Numbered from the stretch's first letter, positions 18,526-62,267 are shown. The stretch is DNA of 64,000 nucleotides from Antedon mediterranea (GCF_964355755.1 NC_092671.1:33490304-33554303), one strand, 5' to 3'. Translations and numbers: made by a program. The notes: a model not told the origin generated them from the sequence alone.

Positions 18526-20945
18526 ACCGAATTTATCCGAAAATTATCTGATTTGAATAAGACAATTTTTTTGGAGCGAAATCGGTTAAACTCCGTTTCC
18601 ACATACATTTTATCAGTTATTTATCGGTTAACCTTTTGAAGACGTGGCCCGTATCTCATACGGGGTAATTTACTGTCCCAGGACGCGAGGTCCGTATATG
18701 AACGGTTTGACTTTTTGGGGTCACTGAATTGAACTTTTTGAGCCTTTGACCTTTGTCCTAGGTAAAAAATGCACTTTTTCGGAAGGCCAAAACATTTCAC
18801 AACAATAATGTGATTCTAATATTTTAAGAGGCCCACTAAAAATACCGGCATTCAGTGAACAGCGTGTTACAATGCGGCATTATGGTAGCTACTCTTCTAC
18901 ATTACTTTGTTCTCACAACACTTTTCTGGATACTTGTCGAAGCCGTAAACATATGTTACGAAGAAACACGTTATTTCATGCTGAAGTTAGTTATAGTTGG
19001 TTGGGGTCGGTAAGTTTAATCTTCAATAAATCTACTTAAAAGGAAATGATTCATATTGTAAACCTAGTTAAATAAAATTAATCTGTTGGAAAAACAATTT
19101 AGGCCAAAATTGGTAAGGCTTTTTTACATTTGACAAGTATATGATAATTTAAGTATAAATTTTATTTTCACAATCACATAATCTTTAAGCAAATGAATGC
19201 ATCGATAATTGTCGCATGTTGAATTGGTAATTGTAGTTTATGGTTGAATAACTTATACATTAATTGTTAAAGCAACGTGAACAATATATTGGTCTTTTAT
19301 TTTAAGGATGTTAAATCTTTTAAATAGAGGTTCGGATGGAGTACCGAAAGGAGATTTTTCTGCACTTTTTTTGAAATGTTAGTATTTTATTTTATTGTTT
19401 ACTGTTCTGATGATGAGATCCATGACGTACAACGTTAATAGCAAGGTTACAATACAAACCTCAGAGAAAAAATGAGGTGTTCAGAACCATAGCATACAGT
19501 TATCGGTACAACTTAAGTGCGCCATTCAAGGTTGTTTCTAGTTGCATATTCATGTGCTCTTACTCACCATTATATGCTGTAGAAAATAAGCCTAGATCTA
19601 AGCCATAAAAAATTAGGACAACATTACCTTGGACAAATGTTGCTGTAAATAAAACATACTTCATAATTTTTTTTTATAATATAGTATACAAGTTTATGTT
19701 GTTTTTATTTTATAGTAGCCTAAAAACACATTTCATCAGGCTCTTGTGATGTTACGAAAATAAGCAGGCCCCATGACGGAGATGTCAGAATGCACGATCC
19801 TATTTTATATACAGTAGTCTACTGTGTATAGGAAATTGTGTTAACCACATGGAGGAAAAAATTATTGGTTACATTACATTTGTGGAATCACTTGACAATT
19901 TTTAATCCGACATGGAAAGCTTAAGTTAGACCTTGTTGTAAAAATACAATGCAATCAGTTACGTACGTCAGGAACCAATTTTTAAAAATGTTGAGGAGTT
20001 GAATCTTAAGTTACACTTTATTTTCATGATTCTTCCTTATTTATAAAAATAAACCGCCTAAGATAATAAAATAATTTGATCATAACTTGACTTGAAGAAT
20101 GTAGAAATGACTAGGTTAATGATCTTGTTATCCGTACCTATCTTATAAAGATGAGAGATCCAAGATTTTGTCATCTGAACATCATTCTCTAAAGGTAGAC
20201 ATGACGTCATTCGTCTCTTCTAAATCCTGTAGATATGATGATTAATAATTTAACTCATTCTCTTCTAAAGCCTGGTTCTAACTAGAACGCAATGCAAGAC
20301 ACAAGTCGTAACGCAAGCGACTTTTCCAATCAAAAGCGTTGGCGTATTACGTTCTTGCGTGGCGTCCTAGTAGGAAACACATCGATGCGTCTGCATTGAT
20401 AGTAGTACATGTAATTTAAAAAAAAATCTCTACAGACATCACCTAGAATTTTGTTTCAGTAATTGAAAAATAATATAATAATAATACGTTAATATCACGG
20501 CCAGCATGTTACATTGTGTGGGTTTCAATACAAAACACAAATAGACGATTACAATTACGTATCAACCATAGGTTTATTTAATACAGTACCAATAAAGGCT
20601 AAGCAAGCAAATTAATAAGCAAAAAATGAATACAAGAACACATTTAGTAGATCTAGATCTAGACATGTCACGTGTGTACATCACATCATTCACGCGTTCG
20701 ATTTTCAACGACGTATCCAAACCCAACTAAAAAAAGAAAAGAAATAATTTCACAAATTTTTATTGTAAATAAGGTTATGTGTAATAATGTTATGCAGGTG
20801 TGTGACCTGCACTGTAATAAGGTCAAATGTCAGATAACAGTGAACTACAATTGACGTTGGTGCGTTATGGTGCGGTATCGTTATCTGTCTTAAAACGATG
20901 CAAAAGGAATCATATAAAATTTGTTTGGGTACAATATACTCACTT

Positions 20946-23900
20946 TTATCCCCATCTTTGTTTTCTGCCTTTGCCTGAAATTAGTTTCATAGAAATAACA
21001 TTATACTCTGTGTTATAAGATGCGGTCAGATAAGATTTTCTACCACCGTACAAGGTGATAATGATAATTATACAATAAAATAATTATAATTGGTATCGAT
21101 GATAGTCAACTTTTTCCGTACTTGAAATTCTGAAATTTGCTTCATCTGATAATTACTTATAAATGGTAAACTTCCACAGACAACTGCTAATAATTTCTTG
21201 TAGGCCTACTTTAATTTTTATTATTCAAAACAAGGCCACAGACTAGTGAAAACATATGCACCATATGCATAATGATTTTGAAATTAGTGAGATAAGGACT
21301 ATGTAACAGTTTGCTGAACTCATTGAGGCCTAAAATATAACTATTTGGATTTCAAAATTGTGTTTGATCTTTGCAGTTGCAGAAACTCACGTGTACTTCG
21401 AATGATTCGGTCGCCGGCTAATAGATAGAAACAAAATATGTGTATGTCAACGATTCTCTGTTTTTTCCCCATTCATTTTTATGGTTAAAGCCTTGTTCGC
21501 ACTGGACTGGAAAATGGTAAATTTATCACGATAGCTTTACCGAATGTAATCGGAAGATTTGACCATCGTTCGCACTTGGATATTTTGCATGATAACCATG
21601 AGGGATTTTTTGATTGGTCAGTTTAGCCGCCGGCGCGGTTAATTTGACCAAATTAGGTCCAGTGCGATCGAGGCTTTAAACTTCAGTTTATCTAACTGAC
21701 GCCTTATACACTGTTTATGATTTCATTACATGTTATAAAAACGTAACGCCTTGCAGCACCCACACCTCCTCCTCTCCCACACGACGACATTTTTTCAATT
21801 ACGGTACCGCATATATAAATTAGCATTTCGCATATTCAAAAAGTATATATGTTATGTAACCTTCTTACACTGTACTAAACTAAGCACATTATTTTGATTT
21901 CATAAATTCTAAAAGTTGCAGTTACTCACGTTGCTCCTGATGGATTTGATCAACACCTATAGAATAACAATTAAACAAAATTACATCGATATATAAACAA
22001 AAATCAACCGGTAATGTACTAAATATATAGGCCTATTAATTTAAAAGGATAAATATAATTAAATCTGTGAGAAAAAACAAAAACTGATTTTTCTTTACAA
22101 CCGATACTCACTTATATCTCGGCGGATTCTGTTATAAGCTGAAATGCATCCTGCATCAAAATAGAAATATGTAATTATATGTATTAATAACCAATTCATT
22201 ATTTATTATTATGACTTGATAACAATTAGCAGTATGCAATAAAACTTACAATGTAATAATAATAGGTCATCGATAAAGCGGTATGAGAAAATAAGTATCA
22301 TAACATTTAATTCTCCGAGCGGAGAAGGTATCATTGTTTGTGGAGGGAGACTATTACGACGAGCTAGATGAGTAAGGCCTCTCATTTTTACTAAACCCTG
22401 TTTTCCAGTCGACGTTGAGTTACGTTGAGTAGCGTTGACTTTTCAAATCATTCAAGTTGAAAATAATAAATATATCGATGATCTAGCCTGATCGCTAATA
22501 TTTACATACTTTTATGCGATCGTTCATGGTTTCTTGGTTTTTTCGAGCGTTCCTTGGACAGGGCTGCATAAGTGTTGCAAAATCAAGGCCGGTCACGCGC
22601 ATCAGAGCCCTCGTGAAAATTGAAGTGACGCGTTTTGATGATCTTCAACCCAGCCTAATGCAGGACATTTTTTTCACTGATATCTTATTCTATGCTTACA
22701 CTAAGAAAACATTAAATACAATTGTTTTTGTGTTATAATTTAAATCAACTTACACCTGTTATTTTGAAATATCAGACCTTAAAAGTGTACAAAAAAGGTT
22801 AAAACCATGTTGCGTTTTAAAGATTCAAGTATGGTCAGCGCGTACGTATTTTTCCACATACCATGACGACGTAATTTGTGAACCATTTGATTGGCAGCCA
22901 ATTTTAACATGTTTTGCTTTAAATTAAATTTTTTTCAGGAAAATAAACGTTTTCAATCCAATTTTGGTTAAAGTTGATAACCATATTACAGTATCGATGT
23001 ATACATACATACAAAGCGCAGATCCGCTTTTAATAGTGGGGGGAGCGTATACAAATAAAATACTTTGCGAGTGAAGCGAGTAACATTAGGCTTGGTGGTG
23101 GCCTCCGGTTCGGATTCAGTGGGAAAAACGCCCTGGAATCCCGGTTCTGTATGTATGTATAGGTCGTTTCAGTCGATCCCCTCCCTCAGGATCTCCGCCG
23201 GTGCATACGTACATCGAATTAAGGCTACATCGCCAGAATTGTAATGTTATGTACAATTAACAAATTTAACAATATGCGTCATTGCTGTAACGTAAAGTTA
23301 TAATAAAATATATATATTTTATACTTACTTGCACCTTCCAAGCCATGTCGACAATCATCATCTTCAGAGTCAAACAAAGTAGAAAGAGTTAGATAGTAAT
23401 TAAGGTAAATAGTGTGTACACATGAATACAAAGGATATTTAAAAAGAAAGTGAAACAAATTGTATACTTAAAACCGATTTTTCACTAAACGAATTTGTTC
23501 GCGCGAATCCAACGTATCGCAAAAAAAAAAATCGTGTTTTCCACTGCAAGAGAGGGGATTTTCATATTTATCGCGTATCTTCTGAGCTAAAGCGAAAAGC
23601 TCGATGAACTAGAATTCGTCACACAGAAGGATTTGGAAAATGGAAAAATAAATACGTATACGTATAAACGTATAGGCCTAAGCTGACGCGTTCGATTAGC
23701 GCGAACACATTTGCCTAGAGTGAAAATCGGCTTTTAATACTTACTCTGACATTGCCCAAATTCAGGCTGCAATAAGAACACGACCAAAAATACTACGACC
23801 AACGTTTGTAATCTCCTGAAAATTGTCCTCAGAATATTAGTTTGAAAACAAAACATAGGATTAATAAGGTCATTGAATATTTAAACACCTACTCCGCTTC

Positions 23901-24101
23901 GGCTTTAGATCACGTTCGCGTCAGTACGTACAGCATTAACGACTTTTCGTTTATACGACGCGCCACGCGAATACTTACTGACTTTAAGATTTGCGCATAG
24001 TTAAGCCACGTATAGCAGCGTGATAAGGAAACAGTGAGATGCGATTTATTAGCAGATGTGAAAAACGCTTTAGTTGGTACTTACTGTTGAGCAGTTGCCA
24101 T
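20946..24101 (-). CDS. Micro-exon gene copy A: 80-aa secreted prepropeptide
   Basis: Exons 24085-24101, 23745-23815, 23329-23361, 22112-22150, 21930-21956, 21391-21417, 20946-20974, all with GT-AG introns. Spliced product MATAQQRLQTLVVVFLVVFLLQPEFGQCQNDDCRHGLEGARCISAYNRIRRDISVDQIHQEQPGDRIIRSTRKGRKQRWG*. Exons and splice sites are conserved in the paralogous copies. Confidence 0.8.
21488..21678. mobile_element. PIF/Harbinger-like MITE in intron 5 of the micro-exon gene
   Basis: aagccttgttcgcactggac ... gtccagtgcgatcgaggctt inverted ends; shared with copies B and C. Confidence 0.55.
23470..23734. mobile_element. PIF/Harbinger-like MITE in intron 2 of the micro-exon gene
   Basis: aaaccgatttttcactaaacgaatttgttcgcgcgaatc ... 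gattagcgcgaacacatttgcctagagtgaaaatcggctt inverted ends; shared with copies B and C. Confidence 0.65.
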
Positions 24102-24151
24102 GATGGTTAGGATATCGAACGTCAGTTTATTACGAATGGTTCATGTATCCA

Positions 24152-24159
24152 CTTTATAA
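24152..24159 (-). promoter_or_regulatory. Candidate TATA box of micro-exon gene copy A
   Basis: Minus-strand TATAAAG about 55 nt upstream of the ATG; retained in copies B (about 48717-48723) and C (about 61888-61894). Confidence 0.5.
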
Positions 24160-26542: not shown

Positions 26543-26656
26543 TATAAATAAAGTATAATATATTTAATAATACTATTGGCCCAAATATCATTCACCACCT
26601 TTTGTTCGGTCGATATCTACGCCTTGCAGTATTTGATAAACGGTTTTGCAAATGTC

Positions 26657-41213: not shown

Positions 41214-44200
41214 TTATCCTCGTCTTTGTTTTCTGCCTTTGCCTGAAACTAGTTTAAAGAAATAGCATTATACTCTGCATGTTTTTTTACCATATTTAAT
41301 GAGGGTGATCCATCCAGCTGATTGCTGATCATTAGGGACCCTCAGAGGTTCACAAGACAAACATATACACAAGATGATCTACATAAATAAAGTCTTATTA
41401 CAAGTCTTTGGGAGTGGAGTTGTAATTTTGTCCTTAGAAAAAAATCCTGACATGTGGCAGGACTTGAACCCAGGAAAAAAGATGCGTTCAGATAAGATGT
41501 ACATACCGCCGTACCAAGAGGAGGATTGATATTGATAATTATACAATAAAATAATCGATGATAGATTCGTTTAACTTTAAATTCTGAAATGTACTTCATC
41601 TGATAACTACTTTATTTGTTCATGGTAGGCCTATATGGTAAACTTCCACAGACTCCTAAATACTTCTTGTACTTTAATTTTCATTATTCAAAAGGCCACA
41701 GACTAAAGAAAATATATGCACATATGCATAATAATTTTGAAATTGGTGAGATAAGGACTAAGTAGCAGTTTTTCTGAACTCATTGAGGTTATTGTAATTG
41801 CAGTAACATATTTTTTATTCGAATTTAACTCTCAATTTTGATTTACAACTATGTATACATATATATATAAATCCAAAGGCAAATTACTGAAAAATGACAA
41901 TGCTGTGGGTATCAGTGGCTGGATCTCAATGGAGGTACAACAAAAAAGAAGCGAAAAACTAGATTAAAACGATAAAGTAAAACAGCCAGAGAAGTTAGCA
42001 GAGCTTTCGAGCAACACTAGCCCTTCATCAGTGCAAGTGAAGGAATTTGGATAACGTCATATGTAGCATAAGTGCTGCTTGGGTGGACAGGAATACAAGA
42101 AATACCACAAAAGGAGAAAGGGTGGTGAATGGTGGGTGGAGACTGAATAAGAGTAGAAAACAAAGAAGGTAGCTTGGTAGAGATATAAACAAATTTGGAA
42201 TGAAACTAAAAAACAGCTTAAATGGTGGTTAATATTGAAACTTAAATTTTGGTAGTAATAATTTTACCGATCTTGGAGTATGTTCTTAATGTTAAGTTCA
42301 AAAGGTTTTGTGGTAGTAATTCCCAGTGGTTTTTATTTTATTTTTATTTTATTCAGTTGTCAACCAACAGCGATGAAACCGCCACTAACAGGTTGAATCT
42401 AAACATAATAAACTATAAAATGTATTCAAATAAACAACAAAAACATAAACAATGATCACAACATTAAAAAGATTTAACAATTTTACCCTTAAATACATTT
42501 AAACTATCATAAAATAAATCAATATCCAAACAAGTAACCTATTAAATGTGTTAGGTAACCGCTGAAAAATACCTCGTTTTGTGCATTCAACACGACCACA
42601 AGGAACGTGAAGCAAACACTTGCTGCGAGTACAAGTTGGTATATTCAACTTAAACAAAGCAACAATAGGACAATCATAAACGGAATTGAATGAGTTGTAT
42701 AAAAAAAACCATATCAAAAACAACACTACGATTTTCAAGAGGAATAAGAGAAACATAATAATTAGGACAAGTGCGAGTAAGGAATCTAATGAATTTGTTC
42801 TGAACATTATAAACACGCTGAGATTGAGTACAAGAAATTGAATTAAAAATGACTGAACAGTATTCCAGGTGGGGGCACACGACTGAACGGTACAATGATG
42901 TTAATGCTCCACCATTGCCCATGAATCTACAGTTCCTCCATAACAAACCCAGCATTCTATTTGCCTTAGATACAACATAATTAAAATGTAAACAAAAATT
43001 TAACTTACTATCAATTAAAACTCCTAAATCCCTTTGAGAATTAACATAATCTAATTCCTGATCATTCAACTTATATTTGGTTATAATAGGCTTTGTTTTC
43101 AGAGTGATACACACAGATTTGCATTTGCTTATTTTTAAAGAAACTTTCCATGTCTCAGCCCATCCCACAAGAGAATCTAGATCCTCTTGCAGCAGATGAG
43201 CGTCGTCAAGTGAAGAGATTACTTTAAACAACTTAAGGTCATCAGCAAACAGAAGTGATTGTGAAATCTTAAAAACAGAAGGAAGGTCATTAATATACAA
43301 ATTAAAAAGCAAGGGGCCAATAATTGACCCATGCGGAAACCCAGAAAGTACAGGAAGCCACTCAGAACAGTTTCCACTGATGACTACCCTCTGCTTCCTG
43401 TCAGTCAAATAATCTGAAAACCATTTAAGAAGATTGCCTTTTAAACCCAACTTTGAAATCTTAAAAACAAGTAAATCATGAGGGACCGAGTCAAATGCTC
43501 TAGAAAAATCAGTGTAGACCACATCACATTGCTTCTGACTATTCAAAGCATTGTATGCTGTAGAAAGAAGCAATGCGAGGTTGGTCTGACACGATCTTCC
43601 AGGAATAAAACCATGCTGAACCGAAGTAATAACTGAACTTATGTTTAAAAACCGCATCGTGAACAATTGGTTCGAACAATTTCGATAAAGTAGGCAACAG
43701 AGAAACAGGACTGTAATTTTCCATTGCCTTTTTGGAGCCACTTTTGTGAATTGGCAAGACATTAGCAAATTTCCATGTCATAGGGAAAATTCCAGAGGTT
43801 ATTGAAAGCTGGTAAATTTTGGAAAGAGGATATGAAAGTGGAGATGCGGCTGATCTAAGAAGAGTATTACTAATTTGGTCATTACCAATGGCCTTATGAA
43901 TATTAACATTACCAACTGCTAATTCTACAGAATGTCGATCTACTACTAATGTTGACATATTATCAATTGAATAATCAGGAAGATCAGGACATTCTTGCAT
44001 TCCATGCAAAGAATTATCACTAAAAAAGGAATGAAAAAAAGTATTAAATAAAAATGCTTTTTCAGAGTCTGATTCAACAGAAATATTTCCCCGTGACATA
44101 ACCGAAGGAAAATCACTAGTCTTGTTTTTACATTTCAACCAACTCTCCAGAATCTCTTTTTATTCGAACCAATTTGTTCAGCAAGTGATTTAAGATAACT

Positions 44201-47200
44201 ATTATATTTTCTTTAACAAAGGTTCTTAAATGAGCGTCGAGCAAAACTAAAATTACTTTGAGTCATACGATTGTTGTTTTTCTTCATAAATCTGAAGCAC
44301 CTTTCTTACTCATACAATACTTTACGTAGTTCTTTATCAAACCATGGAGGTAGTTTCCTTCTCTTTCTAACTTTAGGGACAACGTCCTTGATAGCAGCGA
44401 TTAAAAGATCGTAAAATAATTCAACAGCATCGTTAATATTTCCATTAAAATTAATTAAATTCCATGGTACATAATTTAGTGTATTGCACAAATCATCCAG
44501 ATTCATATTTTTAAAATTGTAGAATATTCTATCATTAAAATTGTTAACATTATTATTGCACCTCGTATTAAACAAATGATAATCAATTCGTATTGATGAG
44601 TGATCAGAATCAAATATGTCATCAGCAGTGTAAACATTTTCAGATAGATTTTGGCTGCTAATAACCAAATCTAAAATTTTATCTAAACGTGTTGGAAATG
44701 TGTTACACTGTAAAAGTCCACAACTGTCCAAGAGAACGTCAATTAAATGTTCACCCATAGAATTACAAGGTTTACTTTGTCTATATTATTATATATATAT
44801 ATATATATATATATATTTTAAACTATTTTTATTTAAAAATTGTATTTGATCGTTCGACGAGTTGCAGATACTCACGTGTACTTCGAATGATTCGGTCGCC
44901 GGCTATTAGATAGAAACAAAATATATACTTATGTCAACGATTATCTGCCAGTCATTTTTATGGTCAAAGCCTTGTTGGCACTGGACTGGAAATGGTAAAT
45001 TTAATCACGGTAGCTTTACCTAATTTCATCGGAAGCTTTGACCATCGTTCGTTTTAACGTAATGTAATGTACTAATGTAACCGTGATGCTAAAAACAACG
45101 ATTGACATATAACATGTGTGATAACATGAGTCGCAAGCGCTTGGATCGGACGTTTTAGCCAGCGTAGTTAATGTTACCGATACATTTCAAGTTCTACTGG
45201 GCAGGTAGTGGTTGGTCAAGTTAACCATCGGAATTGCTTAGTTTAACCATAAGGGATTTTTGCTTGGTAAATTTAGTCGCCGGCGCTGTTAATATGACCA
45301 AATTAGGTCCAATGCGATCGAGGCTTTAGACTTCAGTTTATCTAACTGGCGCCTTATACACTGTTCATGATTTCATTACACGTTTTGAAAATATAACGCC
45401 TTACACACCATCCACACCTACTTTTCCTCTCCCTCACGACGACATTTTTTTTTCAATTAAGGTACCACATATACAATTTAGCATTTTGCATATTCAAAAT
45501 GTCTAAATGTTATGTAACCTTCTTACACTGTACTAAACTAAGCACATTATTTTGATTTCCTAAATTGTCTTTGATCCTTCTACAAGTTGCAGTTACTTGC
45601 GTTGCTCCTGATGGATTTGGTCAACGCCTATAGAATAACAATGAAACAAAAGTACATCGATATATACAAAAATCAACCGGTAATATACTAAATATATAGG
45701 CCTATTAATTTAAAAGGATAAAGATAATAATAATAATAATAATAATAAATAACATTTATAAAGCGCAAGAGACAAAGGTTTCAAAGCGCTGTGTTTTCCA
45801 AGATCAGTGCAAGTAGTAGCGTGCGATTATGCTTCTCTGAAGAGATGAGTTTTGAGTTTAGTTTTAAATGTGATAACAGATTTTGATGAGCGTATTTCGA
45901 GTGGTAGAGTGTTCCAGAGTTTTGGGGCTGCGACAGCGAAAGCACGATCACCGTAAAACCGAGTTCTGGAACGGGGTCCAGGTTTTAGAAGAAGTCTGCT
46001 GGATGAACGAAGCGAAGAGTTGGTTGACGGAGTAATGATGTCACATATGTAGGCTGGAGCACATCCGTTGATGGCCTTATATGTCAGCAACAGGATTTTA
46101 AAACGAATGCGCTGATCAACAGGCAACCAGTGTAAGTCACGTAAAACGGGAGAAATATGTTCATGTCGTTTAGTGCCAGTGATAAGTCTTGCGGCGGAAT
46201 TTTGGATTCGTTGAAGAGGAGACAGATAAGAAGTTGGTAGGCCGTACAGAAGCGAGTTATTACAGTCCAGACGAGATGAAACAAAAGCATGAACAAGACG
46301 TTCAGTTGATGTTTTGTCAAGGTACTTACGAATCTGGCCGATCTGGTAAATTCCAAAGGAAGCACCACGGCAAACATTACGAATGTGTTCTTTTAAACCG
46401 AGGCTGTTGTCTAGTTGGACGCCTAGATTTCTGGCTGAGCTGGAGGTAGAGACACTAGTATCTCCGATATGGACCAAAGGAAATGATGATGCCTCACGGA
46501 ACTTTGAATGAAAATGGATCATTTCAGTCTTGGAGTCGTTGAGCATGAGTTTATTTTGAATGGCCCATGAGCGAACATCTGCAATGCATGATTCAAGGCT
46601 GTTAACAGATTCAGAGTGATGTGTAGGTTTCATGATTAAATATAGTTGAGTGTCATCTGCATAGATCATATGACGAACTTCCGGGTGGGAATCAATGATG
46701 TTGCTGAGTGGTCCAGTGTATAAGATGAAATCGAGTGGACCTTTTACGGATCCCTGTGGTACACCCCAGGGTAGAGCGAACTCATCAGACATCGAATCAC
46801 CCACAATGATTGCTTGTCTACGATTCTCAAAATATGAAATAAACCATTTCAATGCGGTTCCGCTTATGCCGTATCTTTTATGAAGACGTTGAAATAATAA
46901 ATCATGATTGATAGTGTCAAATGCTGCGGAGTAGTCGAGTAGAATAAGTACCGCTTCATTACCTTTGTCTAAAGCAAGTAGTAGATCGTTTGTAACACGT
47001 AATAAAGCGGTTTCAGTTGAGTGAAATCTGTGAGAATAAGAAATAGCCTCCGTAATCAATCGGAACTGGAACATTTTGCTTTATATGCAGATGCCCTAAC
47101 CATATTTATTTATTTATGTACATTAAACCAAAAAGTGTAACATATGCCTGAACCTGACTTAGCTTTATATCTATATCTGACAGAAATAAAACATTGTCTC

Positions 47201-48670
47201 TTAAGAAAAACATGTATAAAAATAAGTAAATTAAACATGCAACATTAGAGATCGACAAAGAGATTATTTAACAATTTGTAAACTTCTTTATTTTTTATTT
47301 CCATTCTAAAATTCTTTTCTTAGAGGAAGGAAACACAAACTGATTTATCTTTACAACCGATACTCACCTATATCTCGGCGGATTCTGTTATAAGCTGAAA
47401 TGCATCCTGCATTGAAATAGAAGTATGTAATTAAAGTATATGTATTTAATAACCAATTCATTATTTAATATTATTACTTGATAACAATAGCAGTATGCAA
47501 TAAAACTGAAAATGTAATAATAATAGGTCATCGATAAAGTACTATGAGAAAATAAGTAAACATTTAATCCTCCGAGAGCGGAGAAGGTATCCGAGAATAT
47601 AGATTCGCACTGAGCACAAGGGATTGTTTGTGGAGGGAAACTATTACGTTGAGCTAGAGGAGTAAGGCCTCTCATTTTTACTTTTACGCGATCGTTGATT
47701 GTTCATGGTTTCTTGGTTTTCGAGCGTTGAGTTATAATAAAATATATATATATTTTATACTTACTTGCACCTTCCAAGCCACGACAACCTTTTTCTTCAG
47801 AGTCATACAAATTAGAAAGAGTTAGATAGTAATTAAGGTAAATGGCGTGTACACTTGAATACAAAGGATATTTAAAAACAAAGTGAAACAAATTGTATAC
47901 TTAAAACCGATTTTCCACTAAACGAATTTGTTCGCGCGAATTCAACGTATCGCAGAAAATAAAATCGTGTTTTCCACTACAAGAGAGGCGATTTTCATAT
48001 TCATGGCGTATCTTCTGAGCTGAAGCGAAGAGCTCAATGAACTAGAATTCGTCACAGAGAAGGATTTGGAAAATGGAAACATGAATACGCACACGTATAA
48101 ACCTAAAGCCGATTTTCCACTAGGCGAATTTGTTCGCGCGAATCAAAAGCGCCAGCTCATACGCATGCGTATAGATGTTTCCATCTTCCAAATCCCTCTA
48201 TACGCATGTGTATAAGCTGACGCTTTCGATTCGCGCGAACAAATTCGCCTAGTGGAAAATCGGCTTAAGCTGACGCGCTAGATTCACGCGAACACATTTG
48301 CCTAGTGTGAAAATCGGCTTACTTACTCTGGCATTGCCCAAATTCAGGCTCCAATAAGAATACGACCAAAAATACTACGACCAACGTTTGTAATCTTCTG
48401 AAAATTGTACTAAAAATATTAGTTTAAAAACAAAACATGGGATTAATAAGGTCAGTGAATATTTAAGCACCTACTCCGCTTCGGCTCTAGATCAAGTACA
48501 GTATTAACGACTTTTCGTTTACAGTACGCGCCACGCGCATAGTATAGCCGGCTAGCCACGTAGAGCAGCGTGAAGACGAAACAGTGAGATGCGATTTTAT
48601 TAGCCGCAGCCGGGACCGGAGTAGATATGAAAGACGCTTTAGTTGGTACTTACAATTGAGCAGCTGCCAT
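41214..48670 (-). CDS. Micro-exon gene copy B: 79-aa secreted prepropeptide
   Basis: Exons 48654-48670, 48327-48397, 47765-47794, 47368-47406, 45601-45627 (GC donor), 44876-44902, 41214-41242. Product MAAAQLRLQTLVVVFLVVFLLEPEFGQCQKKGCRGLEGARCISAYNRIRRDIGVDQIHQEQPGDRIIRSTRKGRKQRRG*. Confidence 0.78.
41285..41475 (-). mobile_element. tRNA-derived SINE, 5'-truncated
   Basis: Near match to 11301-11485; absent from the paralogous site in copy A (about 21008). Confidence 0.7.
41956..42330 (-). mobile_element. Penelope-like element 3' fragment
   Basis: Minus-strand LGITTTKPFELNIK resembles the GIY-YIG C-terminal end and is followed by a CTGATGA...GAAA hammerhead core. Confidence 0.6.
41995..42045 (-). 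ncRNA. Putative minimal hammerhead ribozyme core (Penelope type)
   Basis: Minus strand CTGATGA-A-GGGC-tagtgtt-GCTC-GAAA-GCTC, with stem II able to pair; second copy at about 56341-56391. Confidence 0.5.
42331..44785 (-). mobile_element. CR1-group LINE, 5'-truncated and frameshifted
   Basis: ORFs 44306-44758 (APE end, LDLV..SDH), 43539-44138 and 42674-43768 (QHGF, YTDFSRAFDSVPH, FADD, RDLGV, LYRSVV.PHLEYCS); (AATAA)n tail. Confidence 0.9.
45728..47021 (-). mobile_element. L2-clade LINE, 5'-truncated, reading frame intact
   Basis: HSTETALL, LLDYSAAFDT, YADDTQLY, ARNLGV, LHWLPV, GDRAFAVAAPKLWN, FKTKLKTHLF; (TTA)n tail; the empty site aaagataat|gaaatctgtg is at 60061-60079. Confidence 0.92.
48106..48266. 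mobile_element. Young Harbinger-like MITE nested in an older member of the same family (47901-48320)
   Basis: Perfect TIRs agccgattttccactaggcgaatttgttcgcgcgaatc, flanked by TAA; also at about 61274-61434; absent from copy A. Confidence 0.75.
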
Positions 48671-53266: not shown

Positions 53267-54045
53267 GAAAGCGCAAGTTACGCCTTGTTGTAAATATACA
53301 ATATGCGCATGCGTATTGTATTTTGAAAATAACCTTTGTTACGTAGTAGGTCAGAAACATATTTTTTTTAATTTGGATAATCAGATCATTTTATATCTTC
53401 CTTGTATGTAGAAATGACGAGATTAATGATCTCGTTATCCGAACATCTCTTATAAATGTTTTAGACGTAAGAGATCTAAGATCTTGTCATATGAACATCA
53501 TTCTCTTCTAAAGGTAGACATGACGTCATAACCGTCTCTTCTAAATCATGTAGATATGATTAATAATCATTCTCTTCTAAAGCCTGGTTCTCACTGAGAA
53601 CGCAATGCAAGATACAAGTCGCAACGTAAGCGACTTTTCCAATCAGACAATAGACGATTACAATTACGTATCAACCATAGGTATTTTATTTAATACAGTA
53701 CCAATAAAGGCTAAGCAAGCAAATTAATAAGCAAAATTAAATACAATATGACTAACACATTTAGTAGATCTAGATCAAGACATGTCAAGTGTGTACTACA
53801 CAGCATTCACACGTTCGATTTTCCATGACGTATCCAAACCCAACTAAAAAAAAATAAAATAAAATAATAGTTTCACTAATTTTTATTGTAATTAATGCTA
53901 TGTGTCTGACCTGCACTGTAAGGTCAAATGTCAGTTAACAGTGAACTACAGTTGACGTTGGTGCGTTATGGTGCGGTATCGTACTTTGAAACGATGTAAA
54001 ATGAATCATTTTACATTTTTTGGTACAATTTACTCACTTTTATCC

Positions 54046-57000
54046 CTATCTTCGTCTTCTGTCCTCTGAAACTAGTTTTACAGAAAAAAAGTGCAATAAG
54101 ATAATGATACAATAAAACAATCATACATTTGAATGTGTAAAATATAATTTTAGCAATTTAGTTTACAACTTTTTGTAATTTTAGACCTTACCTACTTATT
54201 TTGACAATTAATAAATAATCGTCAGAGTTCAACAATCGCTGTGCGATTTATAATCGTTACAAATAATTAAAGCGCATGAGCATGATTCTTATATATAGCA
54301 TGAAATAGTCTAAAACATAATTAATGTTTATGAATGCAATAGAGAAAATAATTTCATAAGGTGCAAGATGAATACTTGCTTATCAAGTAAACAGATCAGC
54401 GTCAAGAAAACAAAACATTGAGATGCAATTTTATTTGCCGGAGCCAGACCGGAGCCGAATCGGAGCACATTTGAACGATGCTTAATACTACTTTTCTTTT
54501 TTAGGCTTAACAGTTGTACCCACTAGAGATTTTGATAATAATTCAATTGAAATAGGAAAATATTAATAATTATATTAATGATAAGTTAAAGGAAGCCATG
54601 TTGTGCAACATGACGATGATTCTGGAGGAGGAGGTTATGTGAGATTGGTTGTTATAGTTAGGGTTTTAGTTATCTCAAAGCTAAGGCCAGGCTATGCTTA
54701 TGGACAAGTACTGCATAATATAAAGTATATATACTGAAAATTATGGTTGAGGAGGAGGAAGTTAATTATTGCATTTATATATTATTATAACGCATTACAA
54801 AATGACTCACTTTATACTTTAATCAATCTAACTTACCGTTAGCGTTATTTACAACAAGAATATGGACACATTAATTATAGATTATTAGTTCCAAGTCATT
54901 AACAAAAAATATATAATGGATCGAGCAAATACTGAAATGAATTCATTTTTTTCAGTTCGTATTTCTCTTTCTTCAACCTACCAATTCGGTTAACTCCCCT
55001 TTGACCTACTCTTCCTTGGAATATCTCTGTAAAGAATTGAAAAAAACCTGTACTTTAATTGAAACATTTGACAATATACATTGACTTTATTGTGTTTTCC
55101 TATGTATTTGTCACATTTCTACATAGCTATGTCGATAATTGTTTATACTATTTAGGAGTAGGTTTGCAAATTTATTACATTTTAACGCTGTTCTTTTTGA
55201 CTGTTTTATTGCAATGTTTTATTCCTACTCACCTCCATCCCGACGAATTCTGCTACCATGTTCTTCTGAAATGCAATAAAACAAGAATACACACGATCAT
55301 GTATGCTTCACTATCATTTTTTAAACATTCTGTTATGGTGCCAAATAATGGCCTATAATTAGTTTGTTCCTTTATTATGTTATCCACTTGTACATAGTTA
55401 CTGAAGTGAGGTTTTCTATTTTCTTTTATAATATGCTATAATTAAATTGATTGGTCTTTATGTAGTCTGTTGCTGAAGAAAAATGACGTTGTATCAAGAT
55501 GATCGTCATCACTGGTATGACCTGAAATGCAGTAGGCCTACATTATGGAAGTTAATGGCAGCCATGATGTGCAACATGGCGATGGTTCTGGAAAAGGAGG
55601 TTATGTGAGATGGGTTTTTAGGTTAGGAGTTTAGTTACTAAAGCTAAGGCCGTAAAGATAGGCTTATGGCCAATAGATACTGTATAGTATACGTTTTTAT
55701 GCAGATTATTATGGAGGAGGAAGTTAGTTGGTGCATTTAATTATTATGATAACGCATTGCAACATAACGCTAACTTTTATACGTTATTTGATAACATACC
55801 GTTAGCGTTATTTACAATAGGATTATTAACACATTAATTATAGATTATTAGTTCCAAGTCATTAAAAAAAATATATAATGGATCCAACAAATACTGAAAT
55901 GAATTCATTTTTTTCAATTTGTATTTTTCTTTCTTCAACCTACCAATTCGGTTAACTCCCTTTTGACCTCCTCTTCCTTGGAATATCTCTGTAAAGAATT
56001 GAAAAAAACCTGTACTTTAATTGAAACATTTGACAATATACATTGACTTTATTGTGTTTTCCTATGTATTTGTCACATTTCTACATAGCTATGTCGATAA
56101 TTGTTTATACTATTTAGGAGTAGGTTTGCAAATGTATTACATTTTAACGCTGTTCTTTTTGACTGTTTTATTGCAATGTTTTATTCCTACTCACCTCCAT
56201 CCCGACCACATTCTGTTATGGTGCCAAATAATGGCCTATAATTAGTTTGTTCCTTCATTATGTTATCCACTTGTACATAGTTACTGAAGTGAGGTTTTCT
56301 AAGCTAAATCAAAACGATAAAGTAAAACAGCCAGAGAAGTTAGCAGAGCTTTCGAGCAACACTAGCCCTTCATCAGTGCAAGTGAAGGAATTTGGATAAC
56401 GTCATATGCAGCATAAGTGCTGCTTGGGTGGACAGGAATACAAGAAATACAACAAAAGGAGAAAGGGTGGTGAATGGTGGGTGGAGACTGAATAAGAGTA
56501 GAAAACAAAGAAGGTAGCTTGGTAGAGATATAAACAATTTTGGAATGAAACTAAAAAACAGCTTAAATGGTGGTTAATATTGAAACTTAAATTTTGGTAG
56601 TAATAATTTTACCGATCTGGGATTATGTTCTTAATGTTAAGTCCAAAAGGTTTTGTGGTAGTAATTCCCAGTGGTTTTTATTTTATTTTTATTTTATTCA
56701 GTTGTCAACCAACAGCGATGAAACCGCCACTAACAGGTTGAATCTAAACATAATAAACTATAAAATGTATTCAAATAAACAACAAAAACATAAACAATGA
56801 TCACAACATTAAAAAGATTTAACAATTTTACCCTTAAATACATTTAAACTATCATAAAATAAATCAATATCCAAACAAGTAACCTATTAAATGTGTTAGG
56901 TAACCGCTGAAAAATACCTCGTTTTGTGCATTCAACACGACCACAAGGAACGTGAAGCAAACACTTGCTGCGAGTACAAGTTGGTATATTCAACTTAAAC

Positions 57001-60000
57001 AAAGCAACAATAGGACAATCATAAACGGAATTGAATGAGTTGTATAAAAAAAACCATATCAAAAACAACACTACGATTTTCAAGAGGAATAAGAGAAACA
57101 TAATAATTAGGACAAGTGCGAGTAAGGAATCTAATGAATTTGTTCTGAACATTATAAACACGCTGAGATTGAGTACAAGAAATTGAATTAAAAATGACTG
57201 AACAGTATTCCAGGTGGGGGCACACGACTGAACGGTACAATGATGTTAATGCTCCACCATTGCCCATGAATCTACAGTTCCTCCATAACAAACCCAGCAT
57301 TCTATTTGCCTTAGATACAACATAATTAAAATGTAAACAAAAATTTAACTTACTATCAATTAAAACTCCTAAATCCCTTTGAGAATTAACATAATCTAAT
57401 TCCTGATCATTCAACTTATATTTGGTTATAATAGGCTTTGTTTTCAGAGTGATACACACAGATTTGCATTTGCTTATTTTTAAAGAAACTTTCCATGTCT
57501 CAGCCCATCCCACAAGAGAATCTAGATCCTCTTGCAGCAGATGAGCGTCGTCAAGTGAAGAGATTACTTTAAACAACTTAAGGTCATCAGCAAACAGAAG
57601 TGATTGTGAAATCTTAAAAACAGAAGGAAGGTCATTAATATACAAATTAAAAAGCAAGGGGCCAATAATTGACCCATGCGGAAACCCAGAAAGTACAGGA
57701 AGCCACTCAGAACAGTTTCCACTGATGACTACCCTCTGCTTCCTGTCAGTCAAATAATCTGAAAACCATTTAAGAAGATTGCCTTTTAAACCCAACTTTG
57801 AAATCTTAAAAACAAGTAAATCATGAGGGACCGAGTCAAATGCTCTAGAAAAATCAGTGTAGACCACATCACATTGCTTCTGACTATTCAAAGCATTGTA
57901 TGCTGTAGAAAGAAGCAATGCGAGGTTGGTCTGACACGATCTTCCAGGAATAAAACCATGCTGAACCGAAGTAATAACTGAACTTATGTTTAAAAACCGC
58001 ATCGTGAACAATTGGTTCGAACAATTTCGATAAAGTAGGCAACAGAGAAACAGGACTGTAATTTTCCATTGCCTTTTTGGAGCCACTTTTGTGAATTGGC
58101 AAGACATTAGCAAATTTCCATGTCATAGGGAAAATTCCAGAGGTTATTGAAAGCTGGTAAATTTTGGAAAGAGGATATGAAAGTGGAGATGCGGCTGATC
58201 TAAGAAGAGTATTACTAATTTGGTCATTACCAATGGCCTTATGAATATTAACATTACCAACTGCTAATTCTACAGAATGTCGATCTACTACTAATGTTGA
58301 CATATTATCAATTGAATAATCAGGAAGATCAGGACATTCTTGCATTCCATGCAAAGAATTATCACTAAAAAAGGAATGAAAAAAAGTATTAAATAAAAAT
58401 GCTTTTTCAGAGTCTGATTCAACAGAAATATTTCCCCGTGACATAACCGAAGGAAAATCACTAGTCTTGTTTTTACATTTCAACCAACTCTCCAGAATCT
58501 CTTTTTATTCGAACCAATTTGTTCAGCAAGTGATTTAAGATAACTATTATATTTTCTTTAACAAAGGTTCTTAAATGAGCGTCGAGCAAAACTAAAATTA
58601 CTTTGAGTCATACGATTGTTGTTTTTCTTCATAAATCTGAAGCACCTTTCTTACTCATACAATACTTTACGTAGTTCTTTATCAAACCATGGAGGTAGTT
58701 TCCTTCTCTTTCTAACTTTAGGGACAACGTCCTTGATAGCAGCGATTAAAAGATCGTAAAATAATTCAACAGCATCGTTAATATTTCCATTAAAATTAAT
58801 TAAATTCCATGGTACATAATTTAGTGTATTGCACAAATCATCCAGATTCATATTTTTAAAATTGTAGAATATTCTATCATTAAAATTGTTAACATTATTA
58901 TTGCACCTCGTATTAAACAAATGATAATCAATTCGTATTGATGAGTGATCAGAATCAAATATGTCATCAGCAGTGTAAACATTTTCAGATAGATTTTGGC
59001 TGCTAATAACCAAATCTAAAATTTTATCTAAACGTGTTGGAAATGTGTTACACTGTAAAAGTCCACAACTGTCCAAGAGAACGTCAATTAAATGTTCACC
59101 CATAGAATTACAAGGTTTACTTTGTCTATATTATTATATATATATATATATATATATTTTAAACTATTTTTATTTAAAAATTGTATTTGATCGTTCGACG
59201 AGTTGCAGATACTCACGTGTACTTCGAATGATTCGGTCGCCGGCTATTAGATAGAAACAAAATATATACTTATGTCAACGATTATCTGCCAGTCATTTTT
59301 ATGGTCAAAGCCTTGTTGGCACAGGACTGGAAATGGTAAATTTAATCACGGTAGCTTTACCTAATTTCATCGGAAGCTTTGACTATCGTTCGTTTTAACG
59401 TAATGTAATGTACTAATGTAACCGTGATGCTAAAAACAACGATTGACATATAACATGTGTGATAACATGAGTCGCACGCGCTTGGATCGGACGTTTTAGC
59501 CAGCGTAGTTAATGTTACCGATACATTTCAAGTTCTATTGGGCAGGTAGTGGTTGGTCAAGTTAACCATCGGAATTGCTTAGTTTAACCATAAGGGATTT
59601 TTGCTTGGTAAATTTAGTCGCCGGCGCTGTTAATATGACCAAATTAGGTCCAGTGCGATCGAGGCTTTAGACTTCAGTTTATCTAACTGGCGCCTTATAC
59701 ACTGTTCATGATTTCATTACACGTTTTGAAAATATAACGCCTTACACACCATCCACACCTACTTTTCCTCTCCCTCACGACGACATTTTTTTTTCAATTA
59801 AGGTACCACATATACAATTTAGCATTTTGCATATTCAAAATGTCTAAATGTTATGTAACCTTCTTACACTGTACTAAACTAAGCACATTATTTTGATTTC
59901 CTAAATTGTCTTTGATCCTTCTACAAGTTGCAGTTACTTACGTTGCTCCTGATGGATTTGGTCAACGCCTATAGAATAACAATGAAACAAAAGTACATCG

Positions 60001-61838
60001 ATATATACAAAAATCAACCGGTAATATACTAAATATATAGGCCTATTAATTTAAAAGGATAAAGATAATGAAATCTGTGAGAATAAGAAATAGCCTCCGT
60101 AATCAATCGGAACTGGAACATTTTGCTTTATATGCAGATGCCCTAACCATATTTATTTATTTATGTACATTAAACCAAAAAGTGTAACATATGCCTGAAC
60201 CTGACTTAGCTTTATATCTATATCTGACAGAAATAAAACATTGTCTCTTAAGAAAAACATGTATAAAAATAAGTAAATTAAACATGCAACATTAGAGATC
60301 GACAAAGAGATTATTTAACAATTTGTAAACTTCTTTATTTTTTATTTCCATTCTAAAATTCTTTTCTTAGAGGAAGGAAACACAAACTGATTTATCTTTA
60401 CAACCGATACTCACCTATATCTCGGCGGATTCTGTTATAAGCTGAAATGCATCCTGCATTGAAATAGAAGTATGTAATTAAAGTATATGTATTTAATAAC
60501 CAATTCATTATTTAATATTATTACTTGATAACAATAGCAGTATGCAATAAAACTGAAAATGTAATAATAATAGGTCATCGATAAAGTACTATGAGAAAAT
60601 AAGTAAACATTTAATCCTCCGAGAGCGGAGAAGGTATCCGAGAATATAGATTCGCACTGAGCACAAGGGATTGTTTGTGGAGGGAAACTATTACGTTGAG
60701 CTAGAGGAGTAAGGCCTCTCATTTTTACTATACCCTGTTTTCCAGTCGACGTTGAGTTACGTTAAGTTGAGTTGAATTTTCAAATCGTTAAAGTTGAAAA
60801 TAAATATAATTTTATATCGATTATCGTGTCGGATCGCTAATATTTACACACTTTTACGCGATCGTTGATTGTTCATGGTTTCTTGGTTTTCGAGCGTTGA
60901 GTTATAATAAAATATATATATTTTATACTTACTTGCACCTTCCAAGCCACGACAACCTTTTTCTTCAGAGTCATACAAATTAGAAAGAGTTAGATAGTAA
61001 TTAAGGTAAATGGCGTGTACACTTGAATACAAAGGATATTTAAAAACAAAGTGAAACAAATTGTATACTTAAAACCGATTTTCCACTAAACGAATTTGTT
61101 CGCGCGAATTCAACGTATCGCAGAAAATAAAATCGTGTTTTCCACTACAAGAGAGGCGATTTTCATATTCATGGCGTATCTTCTGAGCTGAAGCGAAGAG
61201 CTCAATGAACTAGAATTCGTCACAGAGAAGGATTTGGAAAATGGAAACATGAATACGCACACGTATAAGCCTAAAGCCGATTTTCCACTAGGCGAATTTG
61301 TTCGCGCGAATCAAAAGCGCCAGCTTATACGCATGCGTATAGATGTTTCCATCTTCCAAATCCCTCTATACGCATGTGTATAAGCTGACGCTTTCGATTC
61401 GCGCGAACAAATTCGCCTAGTGGAAAATCGGCTTAAGCTGACGCGTTAGATTCGCGCGAACACATTTGCCTAGTGTGAAAATCGGCTTACTTACTCTGGC
61501 ATTGCCCAAATTCAGGCTCCAATAAGAATACGACCAAAAATACTACGACCAACGTTTGTAATCTTCTGAAAATTGTACTAAAAATATTAGTTTAAAAACA
61601 AAACATGGGATTAATAAGGTCAGTGAATATTTAAGCACCTACTCCGCTTCGGCTCTAGATCAAGTACAGTATTAACGACTTTTCGTTTACAGTACGCGCC
61701 ACGCGCATAGTATAGCCGGCTAGCCACGTAGAGCAGCGTGAAGACGAAACAGTGAGATGCGATTTTATTAGCCGCAGCCAGGACCGGAGTAGATATGAAA
61801 GACGCTTTAGTTGGTACTTACAATTGAGCAGCTGCCAT
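54046..61838 (-). CDS. Micro-exon gene copy C (chimeric, with extra micro-exons)
   Basis: B-like exons 61822-61838, 61495-61565, 60933-60962, 60415-60453, 59942-59968, 59217-59243; then phase-1 exons 55944-55988 (IFQGRGGQKGVNRI), 55233-55265 (EHGSRIRRDG), 54982-55026 (IFQGRVGQRGVNRI); last coding exon 54046-54065 (DRRRR*). All introns are GT-AG. Confidence 0.65.
54580..56300. repeat. Tandem duplication, period 962 bp, with two micro-exons per unit
   Basis: 54590-55418 matches 55555-56300 (ORF-track offset 55059 vs 56021). The second unit has a deletion of about 85 bp at 56206 that removes the acceptor of its RIRRD exon. Confidence 0.85.
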
Positions 61839-62267
61839 GATGGTTAGATGTCGAACGTCAGTTTATTACGAATGGTTCATGTATCGACTTTATACCCTCT
61901 TTTATCTAAACCGATGCAATAATAGTAATAGATATACATATTCCAAATAGAATTAAATGATAGCTGATATTTAAAAAATCTAAACATAAATATACAAATC
62001 TATTTATCTAACGTAATTTACGATGTTCGTTATTGTTGTTATTCGAATATCATTAATTAAAACAATGTTTATACTTTTAAATATATTTAGTTTAAGTGTG
62101 CTTATTGTTTTTATATGGTGTATGAAATAATAATTAAAATAACTGACACCTGCTGTAAGAAATATTTTCCAAACCATTCTTTAGAAAAATTGGGGAATTG
62201 TATTGAATAGCTATCATCACAATAAAGTTAGTGAGAAAATTTACAATTTTTTGGATCCAATAAGTAC
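56301..62267. repeat. Recent segmental duplicate of about 41956-49445
   Basis: Offset 14345 bp across the PLE and CR1 (identical CR1 ORF translations); lacks the L2 insertion; retains about 130 bp (60730-60850) deleted at 47680. Confidence 0.92.
56676..59130 (-). mobile_element. CR1-group LINE (duplicate of 42331-44785), adjoining the Penelope fragment at 56301-56675
   Basis: ORFs 57019-58113, 57884-58483 and 58651-59103 translate identically to the first copy, including the frameshifts. Confidence 0.9.

What the first reader, a model, noticed from the sequence alone, without database searches (positions are those of the whole stretch)
20550..61900. Hidden tandem family of micro-exon genes encoding small secreted prepropeptides
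Seen: three paralogous minus-strand loci (20.9-24.1, 41.2-48.7 and 54.0-61.8 kb) invisible to the ORF track. Each has a 17-nt start exon, a 71-nt signal-peptide exon, then 27-45-nt exons. These internal exons are all multiples of 3 and all phase 1-1, with splice sites and frame conserved while the introns diverge and collect TEs. Copy A splices to MATAQQRLQTLVVVFLVVFLLQPEFGQC|QNDDCRHGLEGARCISAYN-RIRR-DISVDQIHQEQPGD-RIIR-STRKGRKQRWG*. Established: RxRR/RxxR are furin-type convertase sites, a terminal Gly is the PAM amidation signal, and an N-terminal Gln can cyclise to pyroglutamate. Symmetric micro-exon architecture is best known from schistosome micro-exon genes (MEGs). Inference: a lineage-specific peptide-precursor family (neuropeptide, antimicrobial, toxin or recognition peptide) diversified by exon skipping and gene duplication. 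I do not recognise it as a known family.
Basis: partly seen in the sequence, partly recalled or inferred. Interest (0 to 1): 0.9.

Follow-up and report, generated by a model that had tools for sequence, protein, structure and literature searches.

The report
Micro-exon genes for secreted multi-peptide precursors
Three neighbouring copies of a small animal gene with no database match are built from tiny in-frame exons, the family is spliced in what is probably an RNA data set, and it likely encodes a secreted precursor that would be cut into short defence-type peptides at sites each carried on its own duplicated mini-exon.

Summary
The exon anatomy is real. All 24 coding exons are at the stated places, and 15 of 15 internal exons after the signal exon are 27-45 nt and phase 1-1. 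This far exceeds chance. A probable RNA run holds high-depth contigs joined at predicted exon borders, one across an exact GT-AG intron. They appear to come from a further paralogue outside the window, so expression of A, B and C themselves is not shown. Two claims were overstated. The copies are recent segmental duplicates whose introns are still 84-96% alike, so exon-versus-intron conservation is weak (p 0.05-0.10). Exon skipping is not shown; exon duplication is. New here: every R-I-x-R furin-type site sits on its own homologous micro-exon, 7 nt from the donor, so modules add peptides. The proposed amidated tail peptide is unlikely: its Trp is allele-specific and copy C has no Gly. No homologue was found, but only the signal exon could be searched. 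Best reading: a lineage-specific, furin-processed secreted effector precursor with a variable disulfide-loop peptide. It is MEG-like in layout but not a MEG.

The parts
24085..24101 (-). Copy A exon 1 (ATG, 17 coding nt, phase-2 donor)
23745..23815 (-). Copy A exon 2 (71 nt): hydrophobic core and predicted cleavage region of the signal peptide; ends in phase 1
   Evidence: X1 joint ends within 1 nt of this donor
23329..23361 (-). Copy A exon 3 (33 nt; 30 nt in B and C): first Cys of the predicted disulfide loop; the most variable exon
22112..22150 (-). Copy A exon 4 (39 nt): second Cys and RIRR site ('cleavage exon')
   Evidence: X1 contig at depth 673 covers 32 nt of it
21930..21956 (-). Copy A exon 5 (27 nt): acidic, Gln-rich spacer
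   Evidence: not seen spliced in X1
21391..21417 (-). Copy A exon 6 (27 nt): RIIR site (second 'cleavage exon')
   Evidence: an exon-6-like loose end is seen in X1 (table 7)
20944..20974 (-). Copy A exon 7 (31 nt): polybasic tail, Gly, stop; Trp/Arg and Gly/Asp variants
20540..20726 (-). Copy A 3'-UTR exon (acceptor at 20726, AATAAA near 20578; true 3' end not fixed)
   Evidence: X1 contig of 543 nt starts to align exactly at 20726
40800..48670 (-). Copy B: exons 48670-48654, 48397-48327, 47794-47765, 47406-47368, 45627-45601 (GC donor), 44902-44876, 41242-41212; UTR exon from about 40999; 79 aa. 5' part is C-like (99-100%), 3' part is A-like (85%): probably a recombinant copy
53650..61838 (-). 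Copy C: exons 61838-61822, 61565-61495, 60962-60933, 60453-60415, 59968-59942, 59243-59217, three extra exons (next rows), 54065-54038; UTR exon from 53843; 117 aa
55944..55988 (-). Copy C extra 45-nt spacer exon (x45a)
   Evidence: X1 joint to 55265 skips 678 nt with CT..AC ends, equal to the predicted intron
55233..55265 (-). Copy C extra 33-nt cleavage exon (x33, RIRR), homologous to the 3' half of exon 4; second in-frame AG 3 nt inside
   Evidence: (shuffle p=0.001)
54982..55026 (-). Copy C extra 45-nt spacer exon (x45b), 43 of 45 nt identical to x45a; part of an internal 670-bp duplication (88%)
56195..56212 (-). Remnant of a second x33 exon: donor kept, original acceptor and 5' half lost; a possible in-frame 18-nt exon, untested
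45730..47080 (-). Non-LTR retrotransposon 3' part (RVT_1) in intron 4 of copy B only
56700..59130 (-). Decayed non-LTR retrotransposon in intron 6 of copy C; the same insertion lies in B at about 42350-44790

Best explanation
This is a small, recently duplicated, spliced gene family that likely encodes a secreted precursor, predicted to be cut by a furin-type convertase into short peptides, of which the variable N-terminal disulfide-loop peptide is probably the active, defence- or recognition-type product. SHOWN: exon anatomy, open frames, tandem duplication, duplication of exon modules in copy C, and splicing of family members at predicted borders. INFERRED, step by step: (1) exons 1-2 give a cleavable signal peptide of about 28 aa. 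(2) Exons 3-4 give a 20-21-aa peptide with one Cys-x7/8-Cys loop and a possible pyroglutamate. (3) The precursor is cut after each R-I-x-R. Each such site lies on its own homologous micro-exon, ending 7 nt before a GTGAGT donor, so a spacer exon plus a cleavage exon makes one more peptide. (4) The family diversifies by gene duplication, unequal crossing-over, module duplication and fast change in exon 3 (acidic in A, basic in B and C), while the signal and cleavage exons stay conserved. (5) RxxR sites instead of KR pairs, high transcript depth, copy-number turnover and a variable mature part point to a gland, epidermal or immune-cell effector more than to a classical neuropeptide. The confidence given is for the whole statement; steps 1-3 alone I put at about 0.75.
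For: Anatomy and chance tests. Run X1: a contig at depth 673 joins the exon-2 donor to the exon-4 acceptor within 1 nt, and this joint has depth 0 in 3 of 3 DNA-like runs. A joint at depth 392 skips exactly the predicted 678-nt GT-AG intron. A 543-nt contig starts to align exactly at the UTR acceptor 20726, while intron-spanning pieces have depth 3-4. All three R-I-x-R sites in C, and both in A and in B, end 7 nt before the donor, with D/S then I/T/G after the cut; x33 is homologous to exon 4. pN/pS is 0.22 in the signal, 1.16 in the exon-3 segment and 0.21 in the rest, on small counts. The three listed X1 differences in exon 2 are all synonymous third positions. In the 673x contig exons 2 and 4 align at 85% but nothing aligns to exon 3, which fits a hypervariable exon 3 (inference). 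Precedent for RXRR-cut immune polyproteins: Baramicin A (PMC8423362, passages).
Against: No peptide, tissue or induction data exist here, so the functional class is inference only. X1 is only guessed to be RNA, it is one run of one study, and no DNA control was laid for the x45-x33 joint. X1 contigs differ from A, B and C (12 and 18 other letters in the UTR piece; a diverged exon-4 end), and A/B/C-type exons 5, 6 and 7 were not seen spliced. Exon-versus-intron substitution rates are not significantly different. Exon 6 is not significantly similar to exon 4 or x33 at the nucleotide level (not among the pairs with p<0.05), so its homology rests on motif, position and donor. Copy A's loop peptide has net charge 0 and the middle peptide -3, which is not typical of membrane-active antimicrobial peptides. 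No signal-peptide predictor could be run.
Confidence: 0.42

Rival explanations
1. It is a lineage-specific neuropeptide, hormone or pheromone precursor: the disulfide-loop peptide directly behind the signal peptide is a receptor ligand and the rest is pro-region.
For: The layout signal / Cys-loop peptide / basic site / tail is shared with predicted crinoid precursors PCNP3 and PCNP19 (PMC9793003, section 36 and supplement passages) and, from recall, with elevenin- and vasopressin-type precursors. N-terminal Gln; exon 4 is nearly invariant (38 of 39 nt).
Against: No KR pair at the main sites. None of the 9 family motifs tried occurs in the crinoid supplements, and 0 of 5 in the sea cucumber and ophiuroid supplements. 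Loop length (7 or 8) and charge (0 or +4) differ between copies that are 93% alike in exons, which is unusual for a receptor ligand (inference).
Confidence: 0.27
2. It is a gamete- or mate-recognition peptide precursor (egg-jelly or sperm-activating type), diversified between copies by sexual selection.
For: Short Cys-loop peptide, variable between young paralogues, multi-peptide precursor, high transcript depth. The resemblance to echinoderm sperm-activating peptides is recalled and was not tested.
Against: No tissue information for X1; no sequence match; the taxon is not established.
Confidence: 0.12
3. It is a small secreted structural, adhesive or matrix-binding protein; the Arg-rich motifs bind polyanions or matrix and are not cut.
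For: Arg-rich, low-complexity modules in copy C and a basic tail (mature pI 10.3 and 11.5); symmetric phase-1 small exons are common in matrix proteins (recall).
Against: R-I-x-R followed by D/S recurs at a fixed exon position in every module, which fits a protease site better than a bulk-charge role.
Confidence: 0.1
4. Copies A, B and C are silent or decaying duplicates of a functional gene that lies elsewhere (the paralogue seen in X1).
For: X1 contigs match none of the three copies exactly. B has a GC donor and two large insertions, C has a truncated exon, and B and C are too young for selection to show.
Against: All three frames and all splice dinucleotides are intact; A versus B shows pN/pS 0.34 and only an in-frame exon gap. 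Low-depth intronic X1 pieces with 0-3 differences from A lie inside the gene, while 5 of 5 bins from 23936 to 24755 have depth 0, a weak hint of pre-mRNA.
Confidence: 0.09

Closest known systems
Schistosome micro-exon genes (MEGs); seen through PMC4350168, PMC8293314 and PMC5825161 (passages). The original paper (DeMarco 2010) is not held.
   Same: Signal peptide followed by very short symmetric exons; no homologues elsewhere; gene and exon duplication in TE-rich surroundings; mature part evolving faster than the signal.
   Different: Only 87 of 243 coding nt (36%) of copy A lie in symmetric exons of 36 nt or less (lengths), against about 80% in MEGs. Only 4-7 internal exons. Exon skipping is not shown. 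The host is not a schistosome by its repeats and GC content (inference). The exons are organised around convertase sites, a feature not mentioned in the MEG passages searched ('furin' 0 hits in 2 of 2 papers).
Drosophila Baramicin A and apidaecin-type furin-cut immune polyproteins (PMC8423362, passages)
   Same: Secreted precursor with several RXRR sites giving several short peptides; tandem modules; recent, unfixed locus duplication.
   Different: No sequence relationship was tested or seen. Here each site is on its own micro-exon and the first peptide is a disulfide loop. 'exon' has 0 hits in that paper, so its gene structure was not compared. Immune induction and activity are untested here.
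Predicted crinoid neuropeptide precursors PCNP3 and PCNP19 (PMC9793003; abstract, section 36, supplement passages)
   Same: Signal peptide directly followed by a two-Cys peptide and a basic site; lineage-restricted.
   Different: They use G-KK, G-RK or G-KR amidation sites and show no visible sequence similarity; RIRR occurs 0 times in the 7 supplementary files. The window's taxon is not established.

Membership tests
Schistosome MEG | About 80% of the coding region in symmetric exons of 6-36 bp | tested here: not met
   Copy A 87 of 243 nt (36%), copy C 117 of 354 nt (33%), from exon lengths; counting all exons of 36 nt or less gives 135 of 245 in A. Criterion from PMC5825161.
Schistosome MEG | N-terminal signal peptide | tested here: inconclusive
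   Basic n-region, hydropathy up to 3.8 and a Pro/Gly c-region; no predictor was available.
Schistosome MEG | Symmetric exons removable without frameshift | tested here: met
   16 of 16 subsets of copy A's four internal exons stay open to the exon-7 stop.
Schistosome MEG | Protein variants made by differential splicing | tested here: inconclusive
   X1 shows an exon-4-like to exon-6-like join and a 3-nt-shorter form, but these may come from other copies.
Schistosome MEG | Restricted to schistosomes or flatworms, by homology | tested here: inconclusive
   No homologue found (signal exon only). Named TE relatives are corals, a sea anemone and echinoderms (6 of 120 rows carry an organism name), which is not diagnostic.
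Furin-cut immune polyproteins (Baramicin/apidaecin type) | Several RXRR/RxxR sites in a secreted precursor | tested here: met
   5 RxxR in A and 4 in C; R-I-x-R at a fixed exon position.
Furin-cut immune polyproteins (Baramicin/apidaecin type) | Tandem repeats of related mature peptides | tested here: inconclusive
   Only copy C repeats a module (x45a/x45b, 43 of 45 nt); A and B give three unrelated pieces.
Furin-cut immune polyproteins (Baramicin/apidaecin type) | Immune induction, mature peptides detected, antimicrobial activity | not testable with these tools
   Needs challenge RNA-seq, peptidomics and assays.
Known echinoderm neuropeptide precursors | Sequence match to a listed precursor | tested here: not met
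   0 motif hits in 7, 3 and 6 supplementary files of PMC9793003, PMC6586643 and PMC5627052. Exact short motifs only; sequences shown as pictures would be missed.
Known echinoderm neuropeptide precursors | Dibasic KR sites and C-terminal amidation of the active peptide | tested here: not met
   Main sites are RIRR and RIIR with no preceding Gly; the terminal Gly is absent in C and lies inside overlapping RxxR sites in A and B.
Known echinoderm neuropeptide precursors | Neural expression and a cognate receptor | not testable with these tools
   No tissue label on X1.

The most novel reading that the evidence does not exclude
A splice-programmable peptide precursor: because each convertase site and each spacer sits on its own symmetric micro-exon, alternative splicing decides where the precursor is cut, so a handful of duplicated genes would release a combinatorial set of fused or separated effector peptides, a MEG-like diversity generator acting on proteolytic processing in a free-living invertebrate.
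Probability: 0.2. Interest if true: 0.78.

Novelty: new variant of a known kind. Interest (0 to 1): 0.5.

Why it matters
The family is invisible to ORF-based annotation, and its signal exon is absent from the protein collections searched. It is therefore an example of small secreted-peptide genes missed in invertebrate genomes. It catches module duplication, exon decay and a likely recombinant copy in the act. If the cleavage exons are skipped in vivo, splicing would control proteolytic processing directly, which is easy to test by long-read cDNA and peptidomics. If they are constitutive, this is an ordinary orphan peptide family with an unusual but not unique gene layout: other windows of this scan report at least eight secreted-protein genes with symmetric micro-exons (unchecked notes).

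Tried and rejected
No whole genome is held, so paralogues outside the window could not be read.

Run search: no holder is on record as RNA. X1 is a guessed RNA run with share 0.18; it was laid and behaves like RNA at the joints.

Protein searches covered only the exon-2 reading frame with intron read-through (48 aa). No candidate among proteins of 26-84 aa; 0 of 4 candidates scored among longer ones. The one hit among 1.84 billion representatives (P0123, 924 aa, Thr-rich repeats) was rejected as a chance match involving the intron-derived residues. No usable ESM Atlas hit and no Pfam family for the exon-2 peptides. These blanks say little about the mature region, which was never searched as a protein.

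An exact exon-4 pattern had 0 matches in metagenome contigs; the exon-2 pattern did not complete.

Literature: nine searches listed no paper on this family, judged from listings only.

Taxon: TE homologues were not diagnostic. TAGGCCTA occurs 23 times against 0.6 expected. I recall this as common in echinoderms, but the paper search for it found 0, so 'marine invertebrate, perhaps echinoderm' stays a guess.

B/C as an assembly duplicate: considered unlikely. B/C-type contigs have about twice the depth of A-type ones in X2 (80-96 against 37-45) and X5 (564-600 against 224-304), and B and C differ by an insertion and in their 3' halves. One sample only.

The 24-nt candidate exon at 22777-22754 was dropped because it lies in a high-copy repeat and has no counterpart in B or C.

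No structure or complex prediction was run: the peptides are short and the spliced protein was not available as a query.
Full report
SETTING. The window is AT-rich animal DNA (GC 28-40% per 2 kb). Its long ORFs that were scanned belong to transposons: two RVT_1 hits, a SCAN-domain gag-like ORF and a 1,247-aa ORF between long inverted repeats. No whole genome is held. The taxon is not established. Named relatives of an intronic retroelement are two coral, one sea-anemone and three echinoderm entries (6 of 120 rows named, 52-58% identity). TAGGCCTA is enriched 23 to 0.6, which I recall as typical of echinoderms but could not find in print.

THE OBSERVATION. Reading the minus strand and extracting by coordinates confirms three copies. 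Each has a 17-nt ATG exon, a 71-nt exon, and then exons of 33/30, 39, 27 and 27 nt followed by a stop exon. Copy C has three more exons of 45, 33 and 45 nt. All 15 internal exons are multiples of three and phase 1-1, all 21 acceptors are AG, and 23 of 24 donors are GT with one GC. The frames are open for 80, 79 and 117 residues. A splice-signal filter finds 5 in-frame candidates in copy A against a shuffle mean of 0.04 (0 of 300 shuffles reach 5) and none on the opposite strand. One donor pattern of that filter was added after seeing the data, so I reran a stricter version: it still recovers 4 of 4 internal exons of A, and gives 3 candidates in about 111 kb of strand outside the genes.

The copies are young segmental duplicates, introns and flanks included: 83.8% (A/B), 85.1% (A/C) and 95.9% (B/C) over aligned columns, with blocks of 99.3% and 100% between B and C. 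Exon substitutions are lower than in flanks but not significantly (6.6% against 10.3%, p=0.10; 7.1% against 11.7%, p=0.053). Paralogy alone therefore proves little. Evidence for selection is modest: one in-frame gap in exons against 21 gaps in flanks (p=0.04), and pN/pS 0.34 from 8 synonymous and 9 non-synonymous changes (p about 0.03).

SPLICING. Five runs hold the stretch: four from one sample and one, X1, from another study, guessed to be RNA. X1 has a contig of depth 673 that joins the end of exon 2 to the start of exon 4, each within one base, with unknown letters between. The three DNA-like runs show depth 0 for this joint. On copy C, X1 has a joint of depth 392 that skips 678 nt with CT..AC ends, exactly the predicted GT-AG intron between x45a and x33; no DNA run was laid there. 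A second form at depth 98 is 3 nt shorter and in frame. A 543-nt contig begins to align exactly at the 3'-UTR acceptor 20726, whereas pieces that run through exons 5 and 6 into introns have depth 3-4. So the family is transcribed and spliced at predicted borders, on the evidence of one run.

WHICH COPY IS EXPRESSED. The X1 contigs do not match A, B or C exactly. The 673x contig covers only 32 nt of exon 4 (depth arithmetic). Its loose end then reads, by my hand translation, as a diverged exon-4 end followed directly by an exon-6-like sequence with the motif G-D-R-I-L-R and no exon-5 equivalent (table 7). The UTR contig differs from A at 12 and from C at 18 letters. A 44x contig on exon 2 carries three listed differences, all synonymous (that table shows 40 of 290 rows). 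The same variants occur in the DNA runs at about single-copy depth. The simplest reading is at least one more paralogue outside the window.

ANATOMY OF THE PRODUCT. Exons 1-2 give a basic n-region, a strongly hydrophobic core and a Pro/Gly c-region, most likely a signal peptide cut after residue 28. If the cut were two residues earlier, a third Cys would remain and could link chains. The two mature Cys lie on exons 3 and 4, so skipping either alone would leave an unpaired Cys (inference). Every R-I-x-R site lies within a single exon and ends exactly 7 nt before a GTGAGT donor: exon 4, exon 6 and x33. x33 is homologous to the 3' half of exon 4 (shuffle p=0.001) and x45b duplicates x45a, while exon 6 did not reach p<0.05 against the others. 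The gene is thus a chain of spacer exons and cleavage exons. Applying standard convertase and carboxypeptidase rules (my knowledge) predicts a 21-aa (A, net 0) or 20-aa (B and C, net +4) loop peptide, a 17-aa acidic peptide, a basic tail, and in C two further peptides of 24 and 19 aa. Change is concentrated in the exon-3 segment (pN 0.156 against 0.02-0.05 elsewhere, on 4 changes).

THE TAIL. Position 20954 reads as Arg in all covering depth of X2 and X3 and in 296 of 521 in X5, and B has Arg. The tail holds three overlapping RxxR sites, and C ends in four Arg without Gly.

HISTORY. B shares its 5' part and an intron-6 retroelement with C (99%) but its 3' part with A (85%), has lost or never had the x45/x33 modules, and carries a private retroelement in intron 4. 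It is probably a product of unequal crossing-over (inference). C holds an internal 670-bp duplication at 88%, in which the upstream x33 copy has lost its acceptor and 5' half. DNA depth of about 2:1 for B/C-type against A-type contigs fits two real copies (one sample).

HOMOLOGY AND LITERATURE. Only the exon-2 frame could be searched as protein, and it found nothing credible. Family motifs are absent from the supplements of three echinoderm neuropeptide surveys (PMC9793003, PMC6586643, PMC5627052; supplement searches; for PMC9793003 also abstract, passages and section 36). MEG criteria come from passages of PMC4350168, PMC8293314 and PMC5825161; PMC10526429 gave no hits for the terms tried. 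The family fails the 80% criterion (36% in A) and skipping is unproven, so it works like a MEG in layout but is not one. In processing logic it resembles Baramicin A (PMC8423362, passages). Nine literature searches listed nothing on this family (listings only). Novelty is therefore 'not found with limited searches', not proven.

VERDICT. A real orphan family of micro-exon genes for a likely secreted, furin-processed multi-peptide precursor. An effector role in defence or recognition is my best guess (0.42), ahead of hormone or neuropeptide (0.27), gamete signal (0.12), structural protein (0.10) and silent duplicates (0.09). The distinctive feature is one cleavage site per duplicated micro-exon. 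Symmetric micro-exon genes for secreted proteins recur elsewhere in this scan (unchecked), which lowers the surprise of the layout alone. Interest 0.5; 0.78 if splicing is shown to reprogramme the cleavage pattern (probability 0.2).

Noticed in passing
window 13281-13141, 2110-2039, 542-471 (minus strand): Exons of a separate LRR gene downstream of copy A: a Cys-rich LRR N-cap-like exon (no significant Pfam hit) and two 72-nt LRR exons (LRR_8, E 5.7e-05 and 0.0017, below the curated cut-off). More exons probably lie near 11000-10920.
   Followed up: partly
window 3165-10213: Apparently intact DNA transposon: 1,247-aa ORF (5157-8900, +) with a C-terminal Cys cluster and no significant Pfam hit, between inverted repeats of about 700 bp at 98% identity, with an 81-bp tandem array at 8914-9508; it sits in an intron of the LRR gene.
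   Followed up: partly
window 56195-56212 (minus strand): Half-deleted cleavage exon in copy C; the break lies at a short repeated word, and an upstream AG could still give an in-frame 18-nt exon that lacks the RxxR site.
   Followed up: partly
window 20885-20800 and the matching stretches of B and C: A stretch of about 85 nt in the intron between the stop exon and the UTR exon looks well conserved in all three copies by eye; it may be a further UTR exon or a regulatory element. X1 had no cover there.
   Followed up: no
window 45601-45596: Copy B exon 5 has a GC donor where copy C, identical over the 60-nt flanks, has GT; a candidate for copy-specific skipping of the spacer exon.
   Followed up: no
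window 24204-24881 and 48757-49444: The upstream region of A and of B carries its own local duplications of 200-340 bp. A conserved TATAAAG lies about 55 nt before the ATG in all three copies.
   Followed up: no
window 62619-63899 (+): Gypsy-type gag-like ORF with a SCAN domain (E 1.7e-12) just upstream of copy C; other decayed retroelements lie at 31188-37550.
   Followed up: no
whole window: TAGGCCTA occurs 23 times against 0.6 expected from base composition; unexplained.
   Followed up: partly
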